64,000 bases of DNA from the human T2T-CHM13v2.0 reference genome, Homo sapiens. The stretch lies in NCBI RefSeq assembly GCF_009914755.1, contig NC_060938.1; one strand, 5' to 3'. How positions within the stretch are numbered: position 1 is the stretch's first letter; every line of letters begins with the position of its first letter. Both the position numbers and the translations under genes were made by a program. The notes under the pieces were generated by a model, which saw only the letters and a program-made list of their open reading frames with translations, was not told the origin of the DNA and ran no database searches. This document shows, piece by piece, positions 6,232-21,535 of this stretch.

Positions 6232-6983
6232 TCAGGCAGGTCTGGTTCTTGATGTCATTGCTTCAAATTCTGATTCCCGTTTATCTTCATCAGATTGCCA
6301 AGGATCGAAAATCAATTTATATCACTTCCTTGCTAACTGAGGGAGTGCACTGAGCTTTGTATTTATTAGCTGGAGAAAAATTCTTATTCAATATAACAGA
6401 TTGCTATATTTCACATTAGTACTATAAACTAAAATTTTCTTTCTCTCTGAAAAACAAAAAAATGCCTCTTCTAGGTGTTTCCACCATACCCTGGGCTTTC
6501 TCCTATCTTAGTACAAATCACACCATGTTGAAATTCCCTATTTATGGGTCTGTTTTTACCTTTGGAGTGTAAGCTTCCTAAAAATAGGGGCTGTGCCTGG
6601 TTCCCTGTTTTATCCCTAGCTCCAAGCACTGCCTGGTACATTAAATAGGCAAGCCTGAAATCGTTTGATGACACTGAGATTTGAAAAGAAAGTAGGCCCA
6701 GAGGGCTGGCAGGATTTCTGTTCAATTGCCCAGTTAGATTAAATAAGGCTACCTAGATGTTTAGAAACAGTGCTCTGTTATGTAAAGGAAGGCTGAAAAT
6801 TTTTAAAATAAAGTCTTCTGGTGGTTTGTTGTTGTTGTTGTTGTTGTTGTTTGGCAAATGAGAAGAAAACATGAGCTGATCCCCTTGTGTACTTAGAATC
6901 CTGAGGTTTTTGTCATGACCCCAAAACACTTCCTAGAAATACCAAGTCTCCTCTGAAGTCTCAATTGGGTATTTGCCTTTCTC

Positions 6984-7839
6984 TCTCTCTCTCTTTTTTT
7001 TTTTTTTTTTTTTTGGAGACTGAGTCTCGCTCCGTCATCCAGGCTCGACTGCAGTGGCAAGATCGTGGCTCACTGCAACCTCCACCTCCTGGAATCAAGC
7101 AATTCTCCTGCCTCAGCCTCTCAATAGCTGGGATTACAGGCGTGCAACACCACGCCCGGCTAATTTTTTTGTATTTTTAGTAGAGACGGGGTTTCACCAT
7201 GCTGGCCAAGCTGGTCTCGAACTCCTGACCTCGTGATCCACCCACCTGGTCTCCCAAAGTGCTGGAAATTACAGGCGCGGTGGCTCACGCCTGTAATTTC
7301 ATGTTTTTATTACCGGTGAACTTAAAATTAAGGTGATATATTTTCTTCTGGCTGACAAGAACAGATAATATCATCCCAGCAAATAGTTTTCTAGAGGCAC
7401 TGAGCCTCCTATAAACATTTTCATTTATCTAACTGGCATCAGAGCAGCCTGCGCCACAACTGTTGCCAGCCTCTTCTCTCAACACCAACCTCATATCGTC
7501 CTTGTGTGTTCCACCCTACCAAGGATAGAGGGATCAAGGAAGCTCCTGTGGCAAACGGATTCAGTTTTATCTCATCCTAAAAAAACACTGTAATGTCATG
7601 AAAAATCAAGCCAAAACTGAGGAGGAAGGAGAGAGAGACGTGACTTTTAGTTTTAACACTTGTCTATTCATTAACCCCACCCACCTCCAATCACTTTTGG
7701 CTCCGGGTACATACGGCTTATATTTATGACTAATGCCTGGTATTCTTTCTTTACCTTGGGCCTTCCTTGGAGGAGCAAATCCTGCTGGAGCTGCCTAGAG
7801 GGTTCTGTGATTTACAGGCGTGAGCCACCGCGCCTGGCC
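6984..7839 (-). mobile_element. AluS interrupted near its 5' end by a templated insertion (Alu parts 6984-7277 and 7815-7839)
   Basis: Alu body up to ...gaaattacaggcg, resuming ttacaggcgtgagccaccgcgcctggcc; TSD-like gggt(a/g)tttgcc at 6967 and 7840. Confidence 0.95.
7301..7814 (-). repeat. Inverted duplicate of 8431-8948 inserted inside an Alu
   Basis: Hand alignment to the reverse complement of 8431-8948 gives ~17 substitutions and 3 small indels (~96% identity). Confidence 0.97.
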
Positions 7840-8430
7840 GGGTGTTTGCCATTTTCTAGCCTCCATACCATCACAAGAACTAGTGAGAACTAAGCCGTAG
7901 TCTATAATAAATGATGTGCTTTCGTTGTTCTCACCAAACTATAACTTTAAGCATTTTTAAAGACTTTTATTAAAGATTCTGTTCTGTCGTTTATCTATAT
8001 GTGAAGCTCAGGAATAAGAAGTATTTCCCAAGCAACCGAGGTTACTGATCTTTGGGTTTGTAGGACCAAATCCTGGGAATTTGAAGTGACTCTCTAATGG
8101 TAAAGTATTAATTAGACCTCTGTAAAATGAATCAGACTCATTTGCTTAATCAGGAGTCACCTCAGTTAAAGGGCCAGCCAGCAAGTAACCTGGCTTAGAT
8201 ACAGTGCTGCTTGTTGTTTCCTTTCCAGCTATTTTAAATAGCTGCTGAAATGGGGCCACGGACTGTTTCTGTTCATCCCATTCCTATCTACCCCCGATGG
8301 TGGATGCAGTTCATATCTGCATGACTCATCTAACATTTGCTGCAGAAGTGAAAAGAATGCGAGGATGCTGAGAATCAAGAGGCACTAAGCAGCCTTTCAG
8401 GACACACAGGGTTTCTGAAATGGGTATCCA

Positions 8431-8948
8431 TAAATCACAGAACCCTCTAGCAGCTCCAGCAGGATTTGCTCCTCCAAGCAAGGCCCAAGGTAAAGAAAGA
8501 ATACCAGGCATTAGTCATAAATATAAGCCGTATGTACCCAGAGCCAAAAGTGATTGGAGGTGGGTGGGGTTAATGAATAGACAAGTGTTAAAACTAAAAG
8601 TCATGCCTATCTCTCCTTCCTCCTCAGTTTTGGCTTGATTTTTCATGACATTACAGTATTTTTTTAAGGATGAAATAAAACTGAATCCGTTTGCCACAGG
8701 AGCTTTCTTGATCCCTCTACCCTTGGTAGGGTGGAACACACAAGGACAATATGAGGCTGGCGTCGAGAGAAGAGGCTGGCAACAGTTGTGGCGCAGGCTG
8801 CTCTGATGCCAGTTAGACAGATAAATGAAAATGTTTATAGGAGGCTCAGTGCCTCTAGAAAACTATTTGCTAGGATGATATTATCTGTCCCTGTCAGCCA
8901 AAAGAAAATATATCACCTTAATTTTAAGTTCACCGGTAATAAAAACAT
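8431..8948 (+). repeat. Donor arm of the ~515-bp inverted repeat
   Basis: taaatcacagaaccctc...ccggtaataaaaacat is the reverse complement of 7301-7814; the spacer between arms is 616 bp. Confidence 0.97.
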
Positions 8949-9609
8949 CTATCTCTAGAAATTCCATAATGTTTCTATGCAGAGTACCAATCACCACTCC
9001 CTCTCTGTAAGGTGGCCCATTCATGTTAGCCTCAAGCCATGTGACACTGAATAACTCTCAGCCAAGCAAACGATGCCCTAAGCAGGCATGAGCTGGTCTT
9101 CCAATTCCTTTGTGTGTGCTGCTTTTGGCATATTTGGTTAATGCACTGTGCAAATATAGTCTGAACATGCTAATTTCTCTTAGTAGCATCAGCTTTGCTT
9201 TATTCCAGTGACAAAAAAGCCTTGTCCGGCCCATCCACATTTCTTGGTGAGGAGGGACATAGTAACCAGCAGCCTGACTAATCCATACTCACTATCAAAG
9301 CAAAATGATTTCAGATGAGAGCTCTATCCTTGGCCCTACTTTACAGAGGAAACTAGTCATTTTCACAGGAAATAACTAGCGTGAAAAAGGACTTTGTTTC
9401 CTAGGGTTTCTTAGTGCAAGCTCTTGTTCTCAGAGACACAAAACTCGGCTTCCTGGTCATCATCTTTGACCTTGGTCACGTCACCTGATCTCTCTATTGT
9501 CTCTTCATCTGCAAAATCGGTTTCTTGTTTGCCTTAGAAGTGTCTCTCCAAAACAGAAAGATACAATATGAGTCCTTGAAGGCGACCTTTCACTATTAAA
9601 TGTATCACT

Positions 9610-19700: not shown

Positions 19701-21535
19701 GAGAAGCCAAAAGAAATTAGTGTTTGCTGATTAGTAGAGATTGAAATGTGCTATTTTAGTATTTTCAGGTCAAAGTGATGAACTGGCAATAGAAAAAGGT
19801 GCCTGACAAACAACGACCCTGAAACCTGGCAGGCCGATATTTTGCAATTATTACTTGATTCACAATTCACATTGCAGCCACTATTGATAAGTTCACTAGA
19901 GTTCTGTTTGTGAAAGCCCTTTAGAGGAATGGATATTAACAGTATTTTAGTATATATTATCTAATATTAGTATATATACCAATCTAATTAATGTATATAA
20001 ATATCAATTTTATGTTGTGTGTATATATACATCATTTAGTAGTATATAATATAGCATATGTTAGTATATATAATATCAATTTGATGATGGATTACTTACT
20101 TGCTGCAGAATAAATTAGAGTAAGGATCAAAAAAAGTGAGTGGCAAAAATGACCAAACTAAACATGGGTTATGGTATGAGCAATTAACAAAGACATTTAT
20201 CCAGATGACTAATTGCAAAAGCTCTGACAAATTCTAAATTGGAACATCGTGAAATTAGTCTGCTAATTCAAAAGCAACTTATAAACAATCACCAAAGATG
20301 TGGCTGACTGACAAACAAGAATAATAAAAATATTAAGTGACTGAGAGACTATAAACCTCCAATTTGTATTCTAGACAGAAAAATTGTTTTATTGCCAATG
20401 TAATCCTAACTTGTAAATACACAAAACAAAATCTCTCAGCACCTACTGCAAATACCAAAACACAGTCCTGAGAAACATACAGTTGTAATTGAAATTACAG
20501 GCCTTAGGGAAGTCTGTCTGGATGCCACCCTTGAAAAACACCATTGAAGTATGAAAAGGATGGAATCCTCCACAATTAACCTACACACTCTCCACCCATT
20601 AACAAACCATTTATTTATCTTTGTGCCACAGAAATAAGGGGTTGTGTGTTTATTACTAAGCCTAAATGACAAGAAAATGTATGGTTTCTTAACAGAAAAG
20701 TTCCTTCTGAAAGAAATTAAAGTGCTGAATGTGTTTTTAGAAAATGAAATCTCCTCTAATGGTTATTGTTCCATAACAGGCCTATTTTTCATGTTTCTTG
20801 TTGGTTGGGTGGGACGGGGACTATAATCCTCTCATCAGTTGAAAAGAATAAAATTTCTTCTGTATTATTCTTCAGTCTGGAATTCAGGTGGGATAATTAG
20901 GGCATTCTTTCAGAATTCTATCAATCTCTTATACACAATTCCTATAATTGTTCCAGGGATTTTTGCTATTTGTATCTTTTTTGCTTACTGGCAAATATAA
21001 CCCGGAATAATCTCATTCTGTCAGTAGACTGCATAAAAGAGACTCTGCTCTGTTTTAGATAAGCCGGGACCAGATATCGATAAAGCATATTGCTGAGAAT
21101 TATGAATGCTTAACACTTATTCATCATCAGTGAGAAAATAATAGGGATTATAAGACATAAGAATATAAAAACCCAGTTAGTTGAAAGTTTGCACATGGAG
21201 TGCTTTCTTTGAGCAGATTTTTCATGATGGCTTTGTGGCTATTTTTTTAGGTATCCTTTCATTTTTCTCACTGGGGGTACTATGGGCCTTTGAGCAGCAC
21301 AATTCATTGTTGACTGGCCTACTACAAGGCGTTAGAGTCTCCACTTCTGCACACTAACTGCCAGTAGCACCCCCAGTTATTGTCATAGCCCTAACCAACC
21401 CCACACATTTCCAAAAGCCTCATAAGAGGCAGTACCTTCCTGGTTGGTTACCACTGCCAGTGAGTCCAGTATGGGACCTTGAGAAAAGATTGAGTCCCAT
21501 TAGAATTTCTGATTATTAGAATTTTATTTATTTTT

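What the first reader, a model, noticed from the sequence alone, without database searches (positions are those of the whole stretch)
7265..7839. Three-step template-switch insertion inside an Alu (FoSTeS/MMBIR-like scar, resolvable to the base)
Seen: the minus-strand Alu runs to gaaattacaggcg (7277). (1) It then folds back onto its own opposite strand via a 6-bp microhomology, caggcg, copying 23 nt (7278-7300) and leaving a 13-bp perfect hairpin (7265-7277 / 7288-7300). (2) It jumps ~1.6 kb downstream and copies 8948 back to 8431 in reverse (7301-7814). (3) It returns to the Alu via the microhomology tta, so ttacaggcg flanks the insert on both sides. The insert has no polyA or TSD, so it is not retrotransposition. 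Inference: replication-based serial template switching or pol-theta templated insertion. About 3-4% divergence between the copies suggests roughly great-ape age, unless gene conversion has homogenised them.
Basis: partly seen in the sequence, partly recalled or inferred. Interest (0 to 1): 0.8.

Follow-up and report, generated by a model that had tools for sequence, protein, structure and literature searches.

The report
Old template-switch insertion inside an Alu
An Alu repeat in an intron of the human GNG2 gene was split millions of years ago by a 543-base patch copied backwards from the Alu itself and from unique DNA about 1 kb away, a clean but ordinary example of a known copying error.

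Summary

- **Host Alu.** A minus-strand Alu (6994-7277 plus 7821-7839) rebuilds to a full 301 nt and has its own target-site duplication. It was therefore once intact.
- **Added sequence.** It now carries 543 extra bases:
  - 23 nt copied from its own opposite strand, entered through the 6-bp microhomology caggcg;
  - a 514-nt reverse-complement copy of 8431-8948;
  - a return through tta that leaves ttacaggcg on both sides.
- **Donor.** It is unique sequence, with only these two copies in the whole T2T genome.
- **Divergence.** The copies differ by 17 substitutions in 513 sites (3.3%) and 3 indels. This rules out an assembly artefact and fits an age near the orangutan split, with a wide error.
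- **Junction microhomology.** 6, 0 and 3 bp.

The best reading is one DNA-templated event of serial template switching (FoSTeS/MMBIR type). Pol theta alone is unlikely for the 514-nt piece. RNA-templated repair, fragment capture at a staggered break, and two separate events are not excluded.

No primate genomes were available, so the outgroup test was not run. Small inverted duplications with microhomology are a common, described class. This is a new member of a known kind, of low to moderate interest. The two arms are also predicted to form about 500 bp of double-stranded RNA in GNG2 pre-mRNA.

The parts
6967..6982 (.). Left copy of the host Alu's target-site duplication
   Evidence: Local alignment with 7840-7863 gives GGGT[A/G]TTTGCC..TTTCT, with one mismatch and a 2-nt indel.
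6994..7277 (-). Host Alu, poly(A) tail (read as T on the + strand, 6994-7014) and body up to the departure point
   Evidence: Sequence. With 7821-7839 it rebuilds a 301-nt full-length Alu that matches 9 other window Alus over essentially its whole length at 71-85% identity. Sub-threshold 7SL match in Rfam.
7269..7277 (.). Left copy of the 9-bp flanking direct repeat ttacaggcg. Its last 6 bases (7272-7277) are the junction-1 microhomology caggcg.
   Evidence: D5; junction 1 microhomology = 6; P(>=6) about 0.002 for random local junctions.
7278..7300 (+). 23-nt fold-back copy: the reverse complement of the Alu's own 7265-7277 plus 7821-7830. It forms a 13-bp perfect hairpin with 7265-7277.
   Evidence: observed 7269-7300 equals the reverse complement of the rebuilt Alu end from caggcg onwards. 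(I10, I4). Predicted hairpin of -22.6 kcal/mol for 7260-7305.
7301..7814 (+). Inverted copy of the donor 8431-8948
   Evidence: 496 of 513 aligned bases identical, plus 3 indels of 4, 1 and 1 nt. It is the only other copy in the genome.
7812..7820 (.). Right copy of ttacaggcg. 7812-7814 (tta) is the junction-3 microhomology shared by the donor end and the Alu.
   Evidence: junction 3 microhomology = 3, P(>=3) about 0.059; 9 of 13 bases upstream also match the return site, conditional P about 0.038.
7821..7839 (-). Head (5' end) of the host Alu, separated from its body by the insert
7840..7857 (.). Right copy of the host Alu's target-site duplication
8431..8948 (+). Donor: unique intronic sequence that is still in place
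   Evidence: No Rfam family hit of note.

Best explanation
This is a single, ancient, DNA-templated complex insertion made by serial template switching of one growing 3' end. It is of FoSTeS/MMBIR type, arising at a stalled or broken fork or as break-primed synthesis.

Read on the + strand, the steps are:
1. Synthesis through the antisense Alu stopped after caggcg (7277).
2. The end re-annealed by those 6 bases to cgcctg on the opposite-sense template 16 nt ahead. It copied 23 nt backwards, creating the hairpin.
3. It moved without microhomology to the same-sense template 1.1 kb further on. There it copied 8948 down to 8431.
4. It returned to the original template by tta, 9 nt behind where it had left. 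This duplicated ttacaggcg.

The mirror order on the minus strand is equally possible.

What is shown: the structure, the derived state of the insert, the donor identity and the microhomologies.
What is inferred: one event, a DNA template, a replicative setting and the date.
For: - **Ancestral Alu intact.** Deleting 7278-7820 gives a 301-nt Alu with its own target-site duplication.
- **Two non-contiguous templates.** Both are copied in reverse complement. They lie in an order that a single inverted block plus deletion cannot give: the 23-mer lies left of the donor copy.
- **Self-templating.** The 23-mer carries the host Alu's AATTTC variant. That variant occurs at only 1 other window site, against 8 sites with the usual form.
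- **Donor retained and unique.** There are 2 matches in the genome.
- **Junction 1.** It has 6 bp of microhomology, P about 0.002.
- **Junction 3.** It has 3 bp, plus 9 of 13 homeology.
- **Independent decay since the event.** There are 17 substitutions, of which 5 are at CpGs. Three of those have the CG kept in the insert and two in the donor. There are also 3 indels. This excludes a recent artefact.
- **Literature, long-read survey.** In 1,019 long-read human genomes, inverted duplications were the commonest inversion class outside mobile-element insertions: 277 events, median 284 bp. Most had 1-15 bp microhomology and were read as replicative (PMC12350158, passages).
- **Literature, MMBIR.** Unwinding with further rounds of template switching is part of the MMBIR model (PMC11724301, passages).
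Against: - Junction 2 (7300|7301) has 0 bp of microhomology in today's sequence. A polymerase switch should need some pairing. The matching hexamer AATTTC lies 9 nt off the entry point (P about 0.044), which is unexplained.
- The return point lies behind the departure point. Switch orderings in which the return precedes the departure were not seen among short-range template switches (PMC5453318, passage).
- Nothing in the sequence shows that the three junctions arose in one cell cycle, or that the template was DNA.
- No outgroup or population data could be consulted.
Confidence: 0.7

Rival explanations
1. Staggered double-strand break in the Alu, filled in to give the 9-bp duplication. It was repaired by end joining that captured a pre-formed DNA fragment, or by a hybrid of one end priming synthesis and the other end capturing the product.
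For: - The 9-bp flanking direct repeat looks like a filled-in stagger.
- Junction 2 is blunt and junction 3 has only 3 bp, both typical of end joining.
- Yeast work describes short fold-back inversions. They are primed at inverted microhomology next to a break. Their product is captured by the other end with 0-5 bp microhomology (PMC11724301, abstract and passages).
Against: - A plain fold-back of either broken end does not give the observed loop orientation, nor the retained 25 nt on the right side. This is my own derivation. A second molecule or strand is still needed as template.
- The chimeric 23 + 514 nt fragment still needs a template switch to be made.
Confidence: 0.12
2. RNA-templated repair. 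GNG2 pre-mRNA, which contains both the antisense Alu and the donor, served as template for reverse transcription at a break. This would resemble a class 2 templated sequence insertion.
For: - Both copied pieces are antisense to the GNG2 transcript when read on the + strand. One pre-mRNA could therefore have templated both (gene strand from the annotation supplied with the finding).
- The donor ends 5 nt after an AATAAA hexamer at 8938-8943.
- Templated insertions from transcribed and intronic sequence are described (PMC5110952, passages).
Against: - There is no poly(A) tract at either end of the insert.
- The site lacks the L1 endonuclease preference quoted in PMC5110952.
- Class 2 insertions are described there as lacking target-site duplications and coming from distant loci. 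Here there is a 9-bp duplication and a donor 1.1 kb away.
- Strand compatibility had an even chance of occurring anyway.
Confidence: 0.08
3. Two or more separate events. A short template-switch mutation first made the 23-nt hairpin. Later, the 514-nt copy was inserted at the foot of that hairpin.
For: - Short switch-and-return events that create hairpins are frequent in ape genomes (PMC5453318, passages; PMC7954356, abstract only).
- The blunt junction 2 sits exactly at the end of the hairpin arm.
Against: - It needs two independent events at the same phosphodiester bond.
- The hypothetical intermediate would itself have a return junction without microhomology. This is derived.
Confidence: 0.07
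4. Assembly artefact or chimeric join in the reference.
For: None found.
Against: - The two copies differ at 17 sites and 3 indels. A mis-join would copy the donor exactly.
- The junctions carry ordered microhomology.
Confidence: 0.01

Closest known systems
FoSTeS/MMBIR complex rearrangements (serial replicative template switching)
   Same: - Several junctions in cis.
- Nearby templates.
- The donor is retained.
- Orientation flips.
- Microhomology at 2 of 3 junctions.
   Different: - It is much smaller (0.5 kb) than the disease-locus cases in the papers listed.
- It appears fixed and is millions of years old.
- One junction is blunt.
Small polymorphic inverted duplications in human long-read surveys (PMC12350158, passages)
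   Same: - The size class matches: median 284 bp there, 514 bp here.
- Inserted inverted copies with 1-15 bp microhomology, read as replicative.
   Different: This one is old (3.3% diverged). It also carries an extra 23-nt self-templated piece, and so a third junction.
Short-range template switch mutations, four-point model (PMC5453318, passages)
   Same: The 23-nt step is a reverse-complement copy from within about 30 nt that creates a perfect hairpin.
   Different: - The strand did not return after that copy but switched again to a site 1.1 kb away.
- The final return lies behind the departure point. Such switch orderings were not observed in that study.
Microhomology-primed fold-back and templated insertions at double-strand breaks (PMC11724301, abstract and passages)
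   Same: - A short inverted copy primed at an inverted microhomology.
- Complex insertions with a longer microhomology at the inversion junction (median 6 bp there, 6 bp here).
   Different: - Those are yeast experiments.
- A simple intramolecular fold-back does not reproduce the loop orientation seen here.
Long inverted duplicated sequences in human pre-mRNAs (PMC7006430, passages and supplementary table)
   Same: Arms of about 500 bp in one intron, predicted to pair into long double-stranded RNA.
   Different: - BLAST identity here is 95.6%, just under that study's 96% cut-off.
[quoted passage not shown]
- 9 of its 10 chr14 rows were seen. Against GNG2's position as I recall it, none looks like this locus.

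Membership tests
FoSTeS/MMBIR-type serial template switching | Two or more breakpoint junctions in cis joining non-contiguous templates | tested here: met
   Three junctions, at 7277|7278, 7300|7301 and 7811-7814|7815.
FoSTeS/MMBIR-type serial template switching | Copied segments come from nearby sequence and the donor stays in place (a copy gain, not a move) | tested here: met
   The donor 8431-8948 is intact, and there are exactly 2 matches in the genome. The second template is the Alu itself.
FoSTeS/MMBIR-type serial template switching | Microhomology at the junctions | tested here: inconclusive
   6 bp (P about 0.002), 0 bp and 3 bp (P about 0.059). Two of three junctions have microhomology, and only one is clearly beyond chance.
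FoSTeS/MMBIR-type serial template switching | All junctions formed in one replication or repair episode, dependent on break-induced-replication polymerase functions | not testable with these tools
   Needs intermediate alleles in other primates, or experiments.
Short-range template switch mutation (four-point model) | One reverse-complement fragment copied from close by, followed by direct return to the original template | tested here: not met
   The 23-nt fragment fits. It is followed by a second switch to 8948 rather than a return. The model's authors state that they do not cover multiple successive rounds (PMC5453318).
L1-mediated insertion (retrotransposition, class 1 templated sequence insertion) | Target-site duplication of 5 bp or more | tested here: met
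   The 9-bp ttacaggcg lies on both sides. It is equally explained by the return point of a template switch.
L1-mediated insertion (retrotransposition, class 1 templated sequence insertion) | Poly(A) tract at the 3' end of the insert, 10-30 nt after a polyadenylation signal | tested here: not met
   There is no A or T run at either insert end. An AATAAA lies at 8938-8943, but the copy ends 5 nt later and has no tail. The criteria are from PMC5110952.
L1-mediated insertion (retrotransposition, class 1 templated sequence insertion) | Insertion at a TTTT/A-like endonuclease site | tested here: not met
   The site reads ggaaattacaggcg on the + strand. Neither strand has a TTTT/A motif at the junctions. 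The criterion is from PMC5110952.
Class 2 templated sequence insertion (patch at a double-strand break) | No target-site duplication; donor from a distant region; end-joining features at junctions | tested here: not met
   A 9-bp duplication is present and the donor is 1.1 kb away. Only the blunt or short-microhomology junctions fit.
Pol theta templated insertion | Short templated insert, typically up to about 30 nt, copied from the break's flanks | tested here: not met
   The 23-nt piece fits and the 514-nt piece does not. The size limit is as quoted in PMC11724301.

The most novel reading that the evidence does not exclude
The insertion gave GNG2 pre-mRNA a non-repeat hairpin of about 500 bp, with helices of up to 65 uninterrupted pairs. 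That hairpin may be a real substrate for A-to-I editing or small-RNA production, or a sensor ligand if the intron is retained. Alternatively, the patch itself was reverse-transcribed from GNG2 pre-mRNA. That would make it a fossil of RNA-templated break repair in the ape germ line.
Probability: 0.1. Interest if true: 0.5.

Novelty: new member of a known kind. Interest (0 to 1): 0.25.

Why it matters
This is a clean fossil of a complex template-switch event whose every junction can still be read to the base. The interrupted Alu acts as an internal control, showing which copy is derived without needing an outgroup. The locus could serve as a teaching case, or as a benchmark for tools that detect multi-step templated insertions in ape genome alignments.

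It changes no current view. Small inverted duplications with microhomology are already known to be common in human genomes (PMC12350158). Serial switching is the standard model for them.

The only possible functional consequence is a long intronic double-stranded RNA in a gene I recall, without having checked, as brain-expressed.

Tried and rejected
- **Repeat family or transposon.** Rejected. The donor has only two matches in the whole genome and only the pair within the window. No terminal inverted repeats are visible at the insert ends.
- **One contiguous inverted block followed by a deletion.** Rejected. The 23-mer lies on the wrong side of the donor copy for that.
- **Simple intramolecular fold-back of one broken end.** Rejected. 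It would give the opposite loop orientation, and it would not leave 25 nt of Alu head on the right (derived).
- **Recurrent hotspot at the Alu head's own inverted microhomology.** Not supported.
  - The 28-nt fold-back junction (7269-7296) was searched genome-wide with up to 1 mismatch.
  - It has 21 places, and the backward control has 0.
  - In the 20 places other than this locus, the match is the 5' end of an ordinary sense-strand Alu, and no antisense Alu runs into it.
  - Three of those have a separate antisense Alu head 40-50 nt upstream.
  - The tool's counts are lower bounds.
- **Gene conversion between the arms.** No sign. The differences are spread along the arms, and the longest difference-free stretches are 47-65 bp.
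- **Known RNA families.** Only sub-threshold Alu/7SL-type hits in 6800-9200.
- **Prior description of the locus.**
  - None of the 12 papers listed holds 'GNG2'.
  - GNG2 is absent from the main text and from the 3 held supplementary files of PMC7006430.
  - I read parts 4 and 5 of 6 of its supplementary table.
  - Together with the two passages, that showed 9 of the 10 chr14 rows. Against GNG2's position as I recall it, none looks like this locus.
  - Parts 1-3 and 6 were not read in full.
- **Primate orthologues.** No tool holds them, so the outgroup test was not run.

Full report
**1. What is in the sequence**

The + strand reads as follows:
- A T-run at 6994-7014.
- An antisense Alu body running to gaaattacaggcg at 7277.
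- cggtggctcacgcctgtaatttc at 7278-7300.
- 514 bases of non-Alu sequence at 7301-7814.
- ttacaggcgtgagccaccgcgcctggcc ending at 7839.

The repeat finder reports these features:
- The 13-bp perfect inverted repeat 7265-7277 / 7288-7300, with a 10-nt loop.
- A 25-nt perfect inverted match, 7272-7296 / 7812-7836.
- Four collinear inverted segments that together cover 7301-7814 against 8431-8948.

A global alignment of 7301-7814 with the reverse complement of 8431-8948 gives 496 matches, 17 mismatches and 6 gap columns in 519 columns. Homology ends abruptly at both ends.

**2. Which copy is derived**

Joining 6996-7277 to 7821-7839 gives a 301-nt Alu. It matches nine other window Alus over essentially its full length at 71-85% identity.

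The composite is flanked by a target-site duplication, 6967-6982 against 7840-7857, with one mismatch and a 2-nt indel. So one Alu inserted at one site, and everything between 7277 and 7821 came later.

The host Alu differs from a crude consensus of the nine other window Alus at 34 of 276 sites (12.3%). The other copies range from 7.9 to 18.5%. From recalled diagnostic sites it looks like an AluS-type element, but no tool tested that. Its divergence is about four times that between the two donor copies, so the order of events is consistent.

**3. Where the inserted pieces came from**

The 23-mer, together with the preceding caggcg, equals the reverse complement of the rebuilt Alu end. It carries the host's AATTTC variant. 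In the window, that 11-mer occurs only in the two hairpin arms and at one other place. The usual form occurs 8 times. The Alu itself was therefore the template.

The 514-nt piece comes from unique sequence. A search of the whole 3.1-Gb assembly with 8431-8948 finds only the donor (100%) and the insert (96%). A BLAST of 7200-9000 against the window finds nothing else except Alu matches. Rfam gives only sub-threshold Alu/7SL-type hits in 6800-9200.

The order of the pieces matters. The 23-mer lies to the left of the donor copy, so a single inverted duplication of one contiguous block followed by a deletion cannot produce it. Two separate template stretches are needed.

**4. The junctions**

I used the rebuilt ancestral sequence and a null made from 200,000 random local junctions.

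| Junction | Position | Microhomology | Chance |
|---|---|---|---|
| 1 | 7277\|7278 | 6 bp (caggcg) | P(>=6) about 0.002 |
| 2 | 7300\|7301 | 0 bp | P(0) about 0.56 |
| 3 | 7814\|7815 | 3 bp (tta) | P(>=3) about 0.059 |

- At junction 3, 9 of the 13 bases upstream also match the return site. The conditional P is about 0.038.
- At junction 2, the last six bases of the growing strand (AATTTC) recur in the second template, ending 9 nt before the entry point. The chance of that within 40 nt either way is about 0.044. I cannot tell whether this is chance or the trace of a later 9-bp indel.
- The return point lies 6-9 nt behind the departure point, and this is what leaves ttacaggcg on both sides.
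- The net gain is 543 nt: 23 + 514 + 6.

**5. Age and reality**

- The copies differ at 17 of 513 aligned sites (3.3%), as 15 transitions and 2 transversions.
- Five differences are at CpGs. The CG is kept three times in the insert and twice in the donor.
- Outside CpGs the divergence is 12 of 495 (2.4%).
- There are three indels, of 4, 1 and 1 nt.
- The differences are spread along the arms, and the longest perfect helices are 47-65 bp. I see no gene-conversion tract.

Such independent decay excludes an assembly mis-join.

Against recalled genome-wide divergences (human-gorilla about 1.6%, human-orangutan a little over 3%, human-macaque about 6.5%), 3.3% places the event near the orangutan split. 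The Poisson range for 17 differences is about 1.9-5.3%. This is an inference and was not tested, because no primate genome is available to these tools.

**6. Mechanism**

Both copied pieces use the same-sense strand as template. That is what a switch between leading-strand and lagging-strand templates at one fork would give. The donor lies 0.6-1.1 kb from the site of insertion.

- The MMBIR model explicitly allows unwinding and repeated switching (PMC11724301, passages).
- In 1,019 long-read human genomes, inverted duplications were the commonest inversion class outside mobile-element insertions. There were 277 events with a median of 284 bp. Most had 1-15 bp microhomology and were read as replicative (PMC12350158, passages).
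- Pol theta alone is a poor candidate for the 514-nt copy. The same yeast paper quotes templated inserts of up to about 30 nt for it.
- A plain fold-back of a single broken end, as described there, would give the opposite loop orientation. It would also not leave the Alu head intact on the right. A second strand or molecule is therefore required.

Three points count against a neat replicative story:
- Junction 2 is blunt.
- The return lies behind the departure. Such orderings were not observed among short-range switches (PMC5453318, passage).
- Nothing proves that this was a single event.

**7. Rivals**

- **Staggered break with fill-in and end capture.** This would explain the 9-bp duplication and the blunt junction. 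It still needs a template switch to build the chimeric patch.
- **RNA-templated repair.** Both pieces are antisense to GNG2, and the donor ends 5 nt after an AATAAA at 8938-8943. However, there is no poly(A), there is no L1 endonuclease site, and the donor is local. All three are unlike the two classes described in PMC5110952 (passages).
- **Two separate events at the same bond.** Possible but unparsimonious.

**8. Is the Alu head a hotspot?**

The Alu head contains the inverted pair that served as microhomology. I therefore searched the genome for the 28-nt fold-back junction, allowing one mismatch. There were 21 places, 5 of them exact, and 0 for the backward control.

In the 20 places other than this locus, the match is the 5' end of an ordinary sense-strand Alu, and no antisense Alu runs into it. 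Three of them have a separate antisense Alu head 40-50 nt upstream. The event is therefore a one-off, within the limits of a tool whose counts are lower bounds.

**9. Consequence**

Folding 7255-8960 as RNA gives -1106 kcal/mol. There are 497 arm-to-arm pairs, with uninterrupted helices of up to 65 bp. GNG2 pre-mRNA should therefore carry a long, nearly perfect duplex.

A survey of such structures lists 197 human cases longer than 300 bp and above 96% identity. It reports that they are depleted and that some are heavily edited (PMC7006430, passages). This locus, at 95.6% BLAST identity, falls just under that cut-off.

GNG2 is absent from the main text and from the held supplements. Of the 10 chr14 rows, I saw 9. 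Against GNG2's position as I recall it, none looks like this locus. Parts 1-3 and 6 of the table were not read in full. Any function is speculation.

**10. Verdict**

This is a well-preserved, apparently undescribed example of a well-described mutational process: a new member of a known kind, of low to moderate interest.

Noticed in passing
window 8938-8948: An AATAAA hexamer on the GNG2 sense strand lies 5 nt before the exact end of the copied donor segment. The insert has no poly(A) tract, so I gave this little weight.
   Followed up: partly
window 8949-8963 and 7295-7300: The last six bases made before junction 2 (AATTTC) are complementary to 8958-8963, 9 nt beyond the donor boundary. The chance is about 0.044. 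This could be a lost 6-bp microhomology if a 9-bp indel followed the event.
   Followed up: partly
window 7301-7814 versus 8431-8948: The differences between the copies are 15 transitions to 2 transversions (10 to 2 outside CpGs). This is higher than the roughly 2 to 1 I recall for human substitutions, but by my hand estimate it is not significant with so few sites.
   Followed up: partly
window 6980-6993: A short (TC)n run sits between the left target-site duplication and the Alu's T-run. It may have grown out of the end of the duplication.
   Followed up: no
window 20491-20501: This is the only other window site with the CCTGTAATTTC variant. I did not check whether it lies in an Alu.
   Followed up: no
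L010 (G000:C7:68194117-68197144) and L011 (G000:C7:74068852-74071879): Two places on contig 7, about 5.9 Mb apart and in opposite orientation, share nearly identical sequence around a truncated Alu. The shared part covers the flank, the Alu head and the downstream sequence. This looks like a segmental duplication.
   Followed up: no
L019 (G000:C19:6137139-6140166): About 60 nt into an Alu, the Alu head sequence starts again, so the Alu has a restarted or nested head.
   Followed up: no
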